DNA of 64,000 nt, from assembly GCF_009914755.1 (NCBI RefSeq), contig NC_060931.1. One strand, 5' to 3'. This document shows positions 54,662 to 56,400 of the stretch, piece after piece. The position numbers and the translations under genes are program-made. Below the pieces are notes generated by a model. The model had not been told where the DNA came from, did not search any database, and saw only the letters and a list, made by a program, of their open reading frames with translations. The stretch's first letter is position 1, and each line of letters opens with the position of its first letter. Origin of the DNA: the human T2T-CHM13v2.0 reference genome, Homo sapiens.

Positions 54662-54730
54662 CTTCTTTATTAAGCCTCATAACCTCCCTGCTTTTTCCAC
54701 CCTCTTTTCCAGCCTCTTCTAAATCTACAT
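54662..54730 (-). CDS. ATXN7L1: ATXN7L1 coding exon 2 (69 nt; (N)[22 protein letters not shown](D)), phase 1-1
   Basis: Long polypyrimidine tract and acceptor ...TCATCTGCAG| at 54731. Donor GAAG|GTAAGT at 54662/54661. Continues the exon 1 frame and resembles ATXN7 'KEFGKNREVMGL'. Too short to appear in the ORF track. Confidence 0.95.
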
Positions 54731-55227
54731 CTGCAGATGAAAAAGAAAAGGAAAACAGAAAATAAGGAAAAAAGGGGGGAAAAAAGCCAAAGTCAAGGGG
54801 GGAGGGAGAGTGTTTATTTGCAAACAGATCGATATAAATACTGTATATGAAATTCTTTCAAAAATTGACAATGCAACATTTTCTCCCAAGTCTGGGTTTC
54901 CATCTACCTGGCCCAGATAGGTACCCAAAAAACTATGCAAGCAGCAACAAAGTAGCCTTTTAAACGGACAACACCGTGGGGCTGCGAGCCCACCCCGCGG
55001 GCTGCCACGGGGAGCCGGGCACAGACAGACAGACAGCCCTGGCAGCCGGGCCTCTCCCTGTGCATTGATGATCTGTCTCTGTGTGTATTTATTTAGAGAG
55101 AGAGGGAGAAGCATGGAGGACACCGGGGGCCACTCTCTCTCTCACACACACACTTTTTCCCAGTGGCTCTAGGTGAATGGAAAGGTTACAGGATAATAAA
55201 AGGAGGAGGAGGTGGTGGGGTTCTTAC
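54731..55227 (-). other. ATXN7L1: ATXN7L1 intron 1 (497 nt, GT-AG)
   Basis: GTAAGA...CTGCAG boundaries between exons 1 and 2. Confidence 0.93.
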
Positions 55228-56400
55228 TGTCGGAGCAGTGTAATTTGGCGGCGTCGATCCAGGAGGACCAGGGTTTGCCCAGAAACGCCTCCGGACTGGG
55301 CACTTTGCGATCCAGTGTCGCCATTGCTCTTCCTTCTTGTTGCTTTTTCCCTGTTCCTTCGGCAGCAGCAGCCGAGAGACACGGGATTCGAGAACGCTCC
55401 GACGTCATCTTCGGAACGTTCCGACATTGAGTGTTCTGAAAGGGGGAGGGAGGGAGGAAGGGCGGGATGGGAGGAGGGCGGCGGAGGAGGAGGGGAGAGG
55501 GAGCGGAGGAGGGGCGGGCGCTCGGGCTCCCGGAGCCGGCTCGGTGGGGCTCGCGCGCCCGCGGCCGCCAGGGGCAGCAGAGAGGCACCTGCAGTCCGCG
55601 CCCGCCCGCCCGCCGGGGGCCGCCCGCCTGCCGGGGAGGGGCAGCGCGGACGGGCGAGCGCCGCGTGCGGGAGAGCGAAGGCTGCAGCGCGCCCGGCAGC
55701 CGGGATGCAGCGGCGCCGCCCAAGCCTGGGGCGCAGGGGTCGGGGCACACGGGGATAGGCCCGACGCGGGGCCGAAGGAAGGGTGGTCTTTCCCGCAGAG
55801 TTGCCGCTGGAGGACCGAAAGTTTTGCAGGCAGCCCTTGCTTCCAGCTTGTCGCTCTCTCCCCGCGTCCCTGTCGCCCAACGCGAGGCGCCCCCGCTGGG
55901 GTCCCGACGGCTTGGTGGGGAGGAGCCGTGAGGGGTTGCGCCCCCCACCCCCACCCGAGCCAGGGAAGGGACCCTGGTGACCTCGCCTCCCAGCCCTCAC
56001 CCCCGTCACCCCTTTCTTCTCTTTCCTGGAGGACTTTGGACCATGGAGATTCTGCAGTTGTTGCTCTAGGAGCTGAAACCAGTGGGTAGATGTCGTTCTG
56101 AAACGCAGGTGAGTTTGGAGCGCGACGAGCTACCTTCCCATCTCAGGCTGCGGGGCGTGCAAAACTCAAAAGTTAGGGCCCCCGGACCCCCGGGTTCCCC
56201 GCGCGGTGCGTATCTCCGGCTCTCAGAGAACCACTGCATGGACTTTGCTCCAGGGTCAGCAGAGCGGGAGGGCGAATTTACGGCTCTTGGAAGACGACGC
56301 TAACGGGCCTAGCCCCTGAGCCGTTTCCAGCGCTCCCTGCCGTGAGACGAGGGTGGCCCGGGTTTGCGCAGGCAACCTTTGGCCAGGAATCTGATTCCTG
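54960..56400. promoter_or_regulatory. CpG island / ATXN7L1 promoter, probably bidirectional
   Basis: Very GC- and CpG-rich compared with the flanks. GC boxes (GGGCGG at ~55460 and ~55512, CCGCCC arrays at ~55598-55626). CRE-like TGACGTC(G) at 55400-55407 on the minus strand. Overlaps exon 1. Confidence 0.92.
55228..55408 (-). CDS. ATXN7L1: ATXN7L1 coding exon 1 (181 nt; [60 protein letters not shown] + 1 nt)
   Basis: The minus-strand translation is recognised as the ATXN7L1 N-terminus, with the ataxin-7 family motif PSPExxLGxxWxxW. ATG at 55408 (AAG ATG A). Canonical donor GACA|GTAAGA at 55228/55227. Lies inside a CpG island. Confidence 0.96.

What the first reader, a model, noticed from the sequence alone, without database searches (positions are those of the whole stretch)
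54670..55427. Ancestral ATXN7-type start (MSERSEDDV) retained as an out-of-frame overlapping uORF of ATXN7L1
Seen in sequence: an ATG at 55427 lies 19 nt upstream of the annotated ATG (55408) in a different frame. It reads [33 protein letters not shown]..., stays open through exon 1, and after normal splicing ends in exon 2 (TAA 54672-54670). The product would be an 86-aa peptide with a basic Arg/Lys/Trp-rich tail. Established knowledge (from memory): paralog ATXN7 begins MSERAADDVRGEPRRAAAAA...polyQ...AAAMATVGERRPLPSPE. The first 9 residues of the uORF match it at 7 of 9 positions, whereas the AAAA (55372-55361), QQ and MAT..PSPE elements lie in the main frame. Inference: an indel between ~55398 and ~55372 disconnected the ancestral N-terminus, and the ATG hidden in 'GAT GAC' (Asp-Asp) became the main start. 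The old start may persist as a translational repressor, an NMD trigger, or the source of a microprotein. The reciprocal out-of-frame ATG should exist within the Asp-Asp codons of ATXN7, where it could read the CAG tract in another frame.
Basis: partly seen in the sequence, partly recalled or inferred. Interest (0 to 1): 0.82.

Follow-up and report, generated by a model that had tools for sequence, protein, structure and literature searches.

The report
Ancestral start codon now upstream ORF
The ATG 19 bases before the annotated ATXN7L1 start is the gene family's original start codon: it is still in frame in frogs but out of frame in mammals, where it opens an overlapping upstream reading frame whose function is untested.

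Summary
On the minus strand an ATG at 55427 lies 19 nt upstream of the annotated ATG (55408), in another frame. After normal splicing it reads 86 codons to TAA 54672-54670.

In 14 of 18 frog ATXN7L1 proteins (10 of 14 species), MSERSEDDV is in frame with RIPC...MATLDRK. In 116 placental models and 1 marsupial model the protein starts at MTSERS, from the ATG inside GAT-GAC. The frame break lies at 55400-55391, where human has 10 nt and frogs have 3 codons.

Human ATXN7 has the mirror arrangement. Its MSER start is in frame, and the GAT-GAC ATG opens an 82-codon ORF that reads the CAG tract as polySer.

Not supported: homology of the AAAA run with the ATXN7 polyAla tract. Unresolved: two sturgeon models also start MTS, so the order of events is open.

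Function is inferred only. The uATG has a weak context and sits 8-22 nt from the annotated 5' ends, so I expect a weak translational damper, possibly with NMD. A 14-bp hairpin holds the main AUG in its loop (z -3.9). The uORF frame is open longer than in 99.7% of codon permutations. No paper on this was found. Interest is moderate.

The parts
55425..55427 (-). Upstream ATG (uATG), the ancestral ATXN7-family start codon. Weak context: T at -3, T at +4.
   Evidence: It is 22 nt and 8 nt from the RefSeq 5' ends.
55401..55427 (-). Nine codons, MSERSEDDV, shared with ATXN7 and with frog ATXN7L1.
   Evidence: 22/27 nt and 7/9 aa identical to ATXN7. 9/9 aa identical to 11 frog proteins.
55228..55427 (-). 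Exon-1 part of the overlapping uORF (66 codons plus 2 nt).
54670..54730 (-). Exon-2 part of the uORF, with stop TAA at 54672-54670, 8 nt before the exon 2 donor.
   Evidence: Exon coordinates come from the RefSeq annotation.
55406..55408 (-). Annotated main ATG, embedded in the GAT-GAC (Asp-Asp) codons of the old frame. A at -3, A at +4.
   Evidence: MTS start in 116 placental, 1 marsupial and 2 sturgeon proteins.
55391..55400 (-). Remodelled segment that holds the net +1 frame break: 10 nt between DDV and the Arg codon of RIPC, against 9 nt (three codons, TEP) in frogs.
   Evidence: Comparison. The position is inferred from proteins; no non-human DNA was available.
55322..55324 (-). Third ATG, in the main frame (MATLDRK), optimal context (G at -3, G at +4). 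It is the start of the conserved core and the annotated start in 7 of the 140 stored models.
55388..55424 (-). Predicted RNA hairpin. The 5' arm 55424-55411 is a perfect 14-nt palindrome. The 3' arm is 55402-55388 with one bulged U (55391). The 8-nt loop holds the main AUG, and the uAUG abuts the stem.
   Evidence: -20.9 kcal/mol, z -3.92, 0 of 200 shuffles as stable. (12-nt direct repeat, 92%, spacing 22). (palindrome).
55436..55460 (-). Polypyrimidine tract plus CAG: a 3' splice acceptor-like site, with the exon starting at 55435.
   Evidence: NM_152749.3 starts at 55435. 3 of 7 over-extended placental models diverge exactly before NTQ. A matching acceptor-like site lies 12 nt before the ATXN7 ATG.

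Best explanation
Shown: the ATG at 55427 is the original initiation codon of the ATXN7/ATXN7L1 lineage. Frogs still read [16 protein letters not shown]...MATLDRK in one frame. In therian ATXN7L1 the roughly 9 nt after DDV were remodelled into 10 nt (55400-55391). That put the old start out of frame, and the ATG inside GAT-GAC (55408) became the start of the protein ([10 protein letters not shown]...).

The remodelled stretch is a near copy of the palindromic SERSE-coding stretch 22 nt upstream. I therefore infer a local duplication or templated repair, which also created a hairpin.

Inferred mechanism today: the old ATG opens an 86-codon out-of-frame overlapping uORF. A ribosome that starts there cannot make ATXN7L1, because both in-frame starts (55408 and 55324) lie inside the uORF. 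It terminates in exon 2, upstream of later exon junctions, which is an NMD-type configuration.

The uATG has no purine at -3 and no G at +4, and it lies only 22 or 8 nt from the annotated cap sites. Most scanning complexes should therefore pass it and start at 55408 (A at -3), with some continuing to 55324 (optimal context). So I expect a weak, constitutive damper of ATXN7L1 output rather than a strong switch.

Confidence by part: about 0.85 that this is the ancestral start, about 0.4 for the damper role.
For: Ancestry:
- 14 of 18 frog proteins carry the in-frame start. 11 have exactly MSERSEDDV, 2 have MAERSEDDV and 1 has MSERSEGDV.
- ATXN7 from the same genome starts MSERAADDV in frame with MATV..PSPE, with 22/27 nt identical.
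- 109 placental proteins share the identical 28-residue MTSERS... N-terminus. 7 over-extended placental models and 1 marsupial model agree.

Retention:
- The 7 over-extended models all read TQCRNVPK in the main-frame register of the leader. This fixes positions 2 and 3 of uORF codons 1-6 in those species, including all five wobble bases of codons 2-6.

Architecture:
- ATG contexts and the stop position; annotated 5' ends.
- The stop is 8 nt before the exon 2 donor, and a 105-nt exon 3 follows.

Openness:
- The uORF frame stays open for at least 86 codons in 0.26% of 50,000 codon permutations (median 22 codons) and in 0.2% of 20,000 GC3-matched synonymous resamplings.

The Kozak rules, leakiness of cap-proximal AUGs, loss of reinitiation after long uORFs and the 50-55-nt NMD rule are recalled textbook knowledge, not results of any call.
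Against: - There is no initiation, CAGE, reporter or NMD data, so whether the uATG is used at all is unknown.
- Weak context and cap proximity predict little initiation, so the effect may be negligible.
- Conservation of the wobble bases points to a nucleotide-level constraint (hairpin, palindrome, promoter-proximal DNA) rather than to selection on translation of the uORF.
- Two sturgeon models (P0020, P0023) start MTS with the same M-to-R spacing as therians. The shift may therefore be much older, and frogs may be the derived state.
- 327 of the 447 hits were not listed, so no bird, reptile, monotreme, lungfish, coelacanth or shark sequence was seen.
- The permutation null ignores TpA avoidance, so its p value is somewhat optimistic.
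Confidence: 0.6

Rival explanations
1. Silent relic. The uATG and its nine codons survive only because the leader is a constrained nucleic-acid element (the palindrome and hairpin around the main AUG, or promoter-proximal DNA of the CpG-rich start region). Ribosomes hardly ever start at 55427, and the uORF has no effect of its own.
For: The context is weak and the leader is 8-22 nt. The hairpin has z -3.92 with 0 of 200 shuffles as stable, and one arm is a perfect 14-nt palindrome. All five uORF wobble bases of codons 2-6 are unchanged in 7 placental models from five orders. That is what a nucleotide-level constraint predicts and what pure peptide selection does not.
Against: The uORF frame is free of stops for 86 codons, which only 0.26% of codon permutations reach. 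A silent relic does not explain that. The hairpin was not tested for covariation because no orthologous DNA was available. Rfam has no match.
Confidence: 0.3
2. Microprotein. The 86-residue basic product (pI 10.8) is itself functional, so exon 1 and exon 2 are dual-coding.
For: Stops are depleted in the uORF frame. None of the 19 at-risk codon boundaries before the real stop carries a T at the third position, although 16 of 83 codons end in T. The nine N-terminal residues are identical to frogs.
Against: Downstream of 55400 the uORF frame was never coding in the ancestor. The Atlas feature search of the exon-1 part gave only weak bacterial look-alikes (best 0.84, recognition 1328). Weak initiation is expected. 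No peptide evidence was seen. The 100% placental identity of the main frame hides any signal in the second frame.
Confidence: 0.08
3. Reversed order of events. The out-of-frame arrangement (MSER ATG upstream, MTS start) was already present in the bony-vertebrate ancestor of ATXN7L1, and frogs secondarily re-fused the old start to the protein by a 1-nt change.
For: Sturgeon P0020 and P0023 start MTSGALRV, with six codons from M to R as in therians. The +1 frame of human ATXN7 reads MTSGGSR. With sturgeon as the outgroup, both scenarios need two events.
Against: Frog DDV-TEPR resembles in-frame ATXN7 DDVRGEPR beyond DDV. That is easier to explain if frogs kept the original frame. Any surviving shift must be of the +1 type to land on the GAT-GAC ATG, so parallel shifts are not improbable. 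Sturgeon DNA was not seen.
Confidence: 0.3
4. Programmed +1 ribosomal frameshifting rejoins the old start to the protein. Human ATXN7L1 would then still begin MSERSEDDV, and the hairpin would be the stimulator.
For: Only circumstantial. The two frames differ by +1 within 10 nt that lie in the 3' arm of a stable hairpin. The nine old codons are conserved at the amino-acid level with frogs.
Against: No recognisable +1 shift site, such as a stop or hungry codon after a slippery P-site codon, is evident in 55400-55388. The GAT-GAC ATG with A at -3 gives an ordinary explanation. Sturgeon and therian gene models all start at MTS.
Confidence: 0.02

Closest known systems
ATXN7 start exon (human paralog, L003)
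   Same: It has the same two ATGs 19 nt apart: MSER... and the one inside GAT-GAC. 22 of the first 27 nt are identical. The MAT..PSPE block lies downstream in the same exon. An acceptor-like site lies just upstream of the first ATG.
   Different: In ATXN7 the first ATG is in frame with the protein, and the second opens an 82-codon side ORF (polySer over the CAG tract). In ATXN7L1 the roles are swapped. The second ATG has C at -3 in ATXN7 and A at -3 in ATXN7L1.
WWC3 upstream region (Nucleic Acids Res 2024, PMC11317171; passages read)
   Same: An upstream ATG described as the ancestral start codon is cut off from the coding sequence by a frame-shifting indel in the first exon.
   Different: The WWC3 shift is described as human-specific, and the reference sequence is in doubt. 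The ATXN7L1 shift is shared by 116 placental models and one marsupial model, and a second ATG took over cleanly.
Inhibitory overlapping uORFs such as ATF4 uORF2 (recalled, no call)
   Same: An out-of-frame uORF starts in the leader and ends inside the main coding sequence, so ribosomes that use it cannot make the main protein.
   Different: There is no upstream short uORF that would make this a stress-regulated reinitiation switch. The uATG is cap-proximal with a weak context. It originated as a former main start codon.
Frog ATXN7L1 N-terminus (e.g. P0026)
   Same: The first nine residues are identical to the human uORF. RIPC and [14 protein letters not shown] are shared with the human main frame.
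   Different: It is one continuous frame, with three codons (TEP) where human has 10 nt, and no Ala run.

Membership tests
Overlapping upstream ORF (uoORF) | AUG lies in the transcribed 5' leader, upstream of the main AUG | tested here: met
   RefSeq 5' ends are at 55449 (two transcripts, one of them 'select') and 55435, against the uATG at 55427. This rests on annotation only; the CAGE distribution was not available.
Overlapping upstream ORF (uoORF) | Out of frame with the main ORF, with its stop downstream of the main AUG | tested here: met
   19-nt offset; stop at 54672-54670 after splicing.
Overlapping upstream ORF (uoORF) | Ribosomes initiate at the uAUG | not testable with these tools
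   No Ribo-seq data. Searches for ATXN7L1 with 'uORF' and with 'ribosome profiling' found nothing relevant. Supplementary tables of uORF catalogues are closed.
Overlapping upstream ORF (uoORF) | Lowers output of the main ORF | not testable with these tools
   Needs reporters.
ATXN7-family N-terminus (MSERxxDDV start) | Sequence match to the paralog's start at the same offset from the ATG | tested here: met
   7/9 aa and 22/27 nt.
ATXN7-family N-terminus (MSERxxDDV start) | In frame with the conserved MAT..PSPE block in orthologs | tested here: met
   14 of 18 frog proteins are in frame. It is not in frame in 117 therian and 2 sturgeon models.
ATXN7-family N-terminus (MSERxxDDV start) | Homology of the Ala run (55372-55361) with the ATXN7 polyAla tract | tested here: not met
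   The run is absent from frogs and sturgeons. Therians have three extra residues exactly there.
uORF-triggered NMD target | uORF stop more than 50-55 nt upstream of a later exon junction | tested here: met
   The stop is 8 nt before the exon 2 donor, and exon 3 is 105 nt, so the exon 3-4 junction is about 113 nt downstream. The rule itself is recalled.
uORF-triggered NMD target | Transcript level rises when NMD is blocked | not testable with these tools
   No expression data.
Known structured RNA family (Rfam) | Match to a curated covariance model | tested here: not met
   0 matches at E <= 1 for 55200-55500, both strands.

The most novel reading that the evidence does not exclude
The pair of ATGs 19 nt apart (the MSER ATG and the ATG inside GAT-GAC) predates the ATXN7/ATXN7L1 duplication and works in both paralogs as a leaky-scanning fork. 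In ATXN7L1 the second arm became the protein and the first a conserved uoORF. In ATXN7 the second arm gives an AUG-initiated polySer-frame protein. On this reading, at least part of the polySer product reported as RAN translation in SCA7 tissue would be ordinary AUG initiation that lengthens with the CAG expansion.
Probability: 0.2. Interest if true: 0.7.

Novelty: new member of a known kind. Interest (0 to 1): 0.5.

Why it matters
- It is a clean, datable example of how a main start codon becomes an overlapping uORF. The in-frame state is still alive in frogs, and a human paralog shows the mirror image.
- It tells annotators and variant interpreters that 55427-55401 is not an ordinary 5' UTR. 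Variants there can create or remove an out-of-frame start, or restore the old frame, in a SAGA deubiquitinase-module subunit.
- The same comparison exposes an AUG in the polySer frame of ATXN7, upstream of the CAG tract. This bears on whether SCA7 polySer products need non-AUG initiation, and a single mutant construct can test it.

Tried and rejected
- Chance resemblance: rejected. The nine residues are identical to frog ATXN7L1.
- AAAA/polyAla homology with ATXN7: rejected.
- ATXN7L2 relic: its exon 1 (L002) reads a short MAVRER-Ala4-MAAL start with no MSER..DDV, so it is uninformative.
- Human-genome search with the 60-residue exon-1 peptide: it found only the gene itself, ATXN7L2 (E 1.5e-3) and ATXN7 (E 0.013). 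The four further hits (L004-L007, E 0.28-7.8) were taken as chance and not used.
- Atlas search of the uORF exon-1 peptide: best score 0.84 to bacterial hypothetical clusters with low recognition, so no lead.
- Rfam: no match.
- Literature on ATXN7L1: 'ATXN7L1'+'uORF' gave 1 paper, irrelevant from its listing. 'ATXN7L1'+'ribosome profiling' gave 3 copies of one SAGA/ATAC paper, and the passages I read only name the paralogs.
- Literature on ATXN7: 'ATXN7'+'leaky scanning' gave 1 review, seen as a listing only. 'SCA7'+'polySer'+'AUG' gave 20 papers with 15 listed; I read passages of two of them.
- No paper describing the ATXN7L1 uATG or its ancestry turned up. uORF catalogues such as PMC6283423 (listing only) keep their tables in supplements, which are closed, so this uORF may be listed there.
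- Order of events from sturgeon proteins: inconclusive without DNA.
- Heat-shock-element reading of the repeat (GAA/TTC units in phase): considered, not tested. By my own estimate it is not beyond chance for a 222-nt exon.
- The similarity between the frog upstream extension (..SPSPSLSS before MSER) and the human uORF-frame read-through upstream of 55427 is low-complexity P/S and was not pursued.
- Correction: an earlier count said 8 over-extended models, 19 frog proteins and 13 species. The right counts are 7, 18 and 14 (corrected).
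Full report
**1. Observation**

On the minus strand the window reads cactcaATGtc at 55427. 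The annotated start, ccgaagATGac, is at 55408, 19 nt further on and so in another frame. A third ATG in the main frame, agagcaATGgc, is at 55324. I joined the two RefSeq exons (55449-55228 and 54730-54662) in a script. The ORF from 55427 then has 86 codons, begins MSERSEDDV and stops at TAA 54672-54670. Its product is basic: pI 10.8, with 19 R+K against 8 D+E. The three RefSeq transcripts that carry this exon begin at 55449 (two, including the 'select' one) or 55435. The uATG is therefore in the annotated mRNA, only 22 or 8 nt from its 5' end.

**2. The paralog**

A six-frame search of the same genome with the 60-residue exon-1 peptide found ATXN7L2 (E 1.5e-3) and ATXN7 (E 0.013). It also found four weaker hits that I took as chance. 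The ATXN7 locus L003 has an ORF that starts MSERAADDV and continues in frame through an Ala run, Q10 and MATV..PSPE. The first 27 nt are 22/27 identical to the uORF start, and GATGACGTC is identical.

The ATG inside GAT-GAC (L003 1331, context ccgcggATGac) opens an 82-codon ORF. It reads the CAG tract as ten Ser and ends inside the same exon.

**3. Orthologs: the decisive test**

No vertebrate DNA other than human is reachable here, so I used annotated proteins. There were three searches.
- 20 of 20 scored candidates passed; 27 candidates without a named source were left out.
- 6 of 11 passed; 79 were left out.
- 447 of 451 passed, only the best 120 were listed, and 23 were left out.

Together they stored 140 proteins. 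Their sequences before MATLDRK fall into these groups:
- 109 placental proteins have one identical 28-residue N-terminus that starts MTSERS.
- 7 placental models run further upstream but contain the same 28 residues.
- 1 marsupial (P0045) starts MTSERS and has three substitutions later.
- 2 sturgeon models (P0020, P0023) start MTSGALRV.
- 7 models start at MATL: 4 frogs, bichir, paddlefish and one sturgeon isoform.
- 14 frog proteins from 10 species carry M[S/A]ERSE[D/G]DV-T[E/K/A][P/A]-RIPC...[14 protein letters not shown] in one frame.

Eleven of those 14 begin with exactly the nine residues of the human uORF. So the old start is in frame in a living tetrapod lineage and out of frame in therians.

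The residues shared with the frog protein switch from the human uORF frame (up to DDV, ending at 55401) to the human main frame (from the Arg codon of RIPC, starting at 55390). Between them human has 10 nt and frogs have three codons. The break is thus a net +1 within 55400-55391.

**4.

Frogs and sturgeons have 9 residues between RIPC/RVPC and QQEGRA, and therians have 12. The Ala run is the therian extra, so it is not a relic of the ATXN7 polyAla tract.

The break is at least therian in age. The sturgeon MTS start, with the same six codons from M to R, leaves two equally parsimonious histories. Either +1 shifts arose in parallel on a frame where only a +1 shift finds a ready ATG, or one old shift was followed by re-fusion in frogs. 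Frog DDV-TEPR resembles in-frame ATXN7 DDVRGEPR, which favours the first. The likeness of sturgeon MTSG to the +1 frame of ATXN7 (MTSGGSR) shows only that the DNA is homologous.

The 327 unlisted hits probably include sauropsids, which I could not see. A zebrafish paper (PMC3511343, passages read) lists atxn7, atxn7l2a/b and atxn7l3 but no atxn7l1.

**5. Retention**

Seven database models that were extended upstream (mole P0008, panda P0009, whale P0011, macaque P0014, sheep P0016, tree shrew P0019, douc P0114) translate the leader in the main-frame register. All read TQCRNVPK before MTSERS. In that register the second codon position is the wobble position of the uORF codons. The wobble bases of uORF codons 2-6, and the T and G of the uATG, are therefore unchanged in seven species of five orders. 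Only uORF first positions could differ unseen.

This shows constraint. It is constraint on nucleotides, though, not the pattern expected from selection on a peptide alone.

**6. A structure in the same place**

The stretch 55424-55411 is a perfect 14-nt palindrome. A near copy lies 22 nt downstream (12 nt, 92%). As RNA the two copies pair into a 14-bp hairpin with one bulged U (55391). The uAUG sits directly 5' of the stem and the main AUG sits in the 8-nt loop. The energy is -20.9 kcal/mol for 42 nt, z -3.92, and 0 of 200 shuffles fold as well. In an 80-nt context z is -2.41, with 6 of 200.

The 3' arm is the remodelled segment that holds the frame break. I infer that a local duplication or templated repair of the palindromic SERSE-coding stretch both shifted the frame and made the hairpin. 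Rfam has no match, and covariation could not be tested.

**7. Openness of the uORF frame**

I permuted synonymous codons among positions of the real 83 main-frame codons. The uORF then reached 86 codons in 0.26% of 50,000 trials (median 22 codons) and stayed open through exon 1 in 1.4%. GC3-matched resampling gave 0.2% and about 1% of 20,000 trials. There are 21 codon boundaries where a T-ending synonym would make a stop. The 19 before the real stop carry none, although 16 of 83 codons end in T.

The null ignores TpA avoidance, so the result is suggestive rather than decisive. Ancestry does not explain it, because this frame was never coding downstream of the break.

**8. Mechanism (inferred)**

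By textbook scanning rules (recalled), an AUG without a purine at -3 or a G at +4 that lies 8-22 nt from the cap is mostly bypassed. The main AUG has A at -3, and the third has the optimal G at -3 and G at +4. I therefore expect minor initiation at 55427, major initiation at 55408 and some at 55324.

Ribosomes that use 55427 cannot reach either in-frame start. They terminate 8 nt before the exon 2 donor, with the exon 3-4 junction about 113 nt downstream. That is an NMD-type configuration.

The net effect would be a weak constitutive damper. If transcripts with longer leaders exist, the effect would be larger. The acceptor-like site tttcag|AAC at 55436|55435 would allow such transcripts. It coincides with the 5' end of NM_152749.3, and 3 of the 7 over-extended models use it as a junction.

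**9. Comparison with what is known**

Overlapping inhibitory uORFs are a known class. The closest published analogue I found is WWC3. [quoted passage not shown] The ATXN7L1 case is older, is fixed across therians, and is mirrored in a paralog.

A review of polyQ-ataxia paralogs (PMC10676324, passages read) describes ATXN7L1 only by its three shared domains. The searches found nothing on this uATG. Catalogues whose tables are in closed supplements may list it.

**10. Side result on ATXN7**

PMC13131278 (passages read) reports polySer (AGC-frame) aggregates in SCA7 tissue, confirmed with a locus-specific C-terminal antibody, and treats them as RAN products. The passages I saw do not mention an AUG in that frame. 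PMC13313202 (passages read) notes a database-predicted polySer ORF of about 14 kDa in an ATXN7 circRNA. The reference sequence has an AUG in that frame 19 nt after the main AUG, with no stop before the repeat. Its context is weak (C at -3).

**11. Verdict**

The evolutionary interpretation is supported, with corrections on the position of the break, the Ala run and the age. The functional part is untested. It is a new member of a known kind, of moderate interest.

Noticed in passing
L003 1331-1579 (G000 chr3, ATXN7 start exon): The ATG inside the Asp-Asp codons of ATXN7 opens an 82-codon ORF that reads the CAG tract as ten Ser, with no stop before the repeat. A 2025 paper calls SCA7 polySer a RAN product, and the passages I read mention no AUG in that frame. 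A 2026 circRNA paper mentions a predicted polySer ORF.
   Followed up: partly
window 55388-55424 (-): A perfect 14-nt palindrome and its near copy 22 nt downstream fold into a 14-bp hairpin. The main AUG is in the loop and the uAUG is at the foot of the stem (z -3.92). The bulged U lies in the segment that holds the frame break.
   Followed up: partly
window 55435-55460 (-): A polypyrimidine tract plus CAG, directly before 55435, looks like a 3' splice acceptor. NM_152749.3 starts exactly at 55435, and three placental gene models join an upstream exon there. ATXN7 has a matching acceptor-like site 12 nt before its ATG (L003 about 1281-1299).
   Followed up: partly
window 55409-55996 (-): The main frame has no stop for 196 codons upstream of the annotated ATG (GC-rich promoter). 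Several database models (e.g. P0014, 387 aa) are therefore over-extended into untranscribed or untranslated DNA.
   Followed up: yes
window 55361-55372 (-): The Ala4 run of the main frame is a therian-specific three-residue gain relative to frogs and sturgeons.
   Followed up: yes
window 55492-55702: RefSeq lists a 'silencer' functional element (silent region_18524) just upstream of the transcription start.
   Followed up: no
L002 1510-1640 (G000 chr1, ATXN7L2 exon 1): ATXN7L2 has only a 10-residue pre-core N-terminus (MAVRER, then four Ala) before MAAL, with no MSER..DDV relic. The stretch before the MAT/MAA core is the most variable part of the three paralogs.
   Followed up: partly
P0024, P0030, P0033, P0042 (frog ATXN7L1 long isoforms): Four frog models extend the old frame further upstream by a conserved Ser/Pro-rich stretch that ends ..SS directly before MSER. 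The human uORF frame is also open upstream of 55427 and reads a P/S/L-rich stretch. The similarity is low-complexity only.
   Followed up: no
window 55387-55424 (-): The two repeat copies contain GAA/TTC units in the 5-nt phase of a heat-shock element (the second copy has three units with one mismatch). By my own estimate this is not beyond chance.
   Followed up: no
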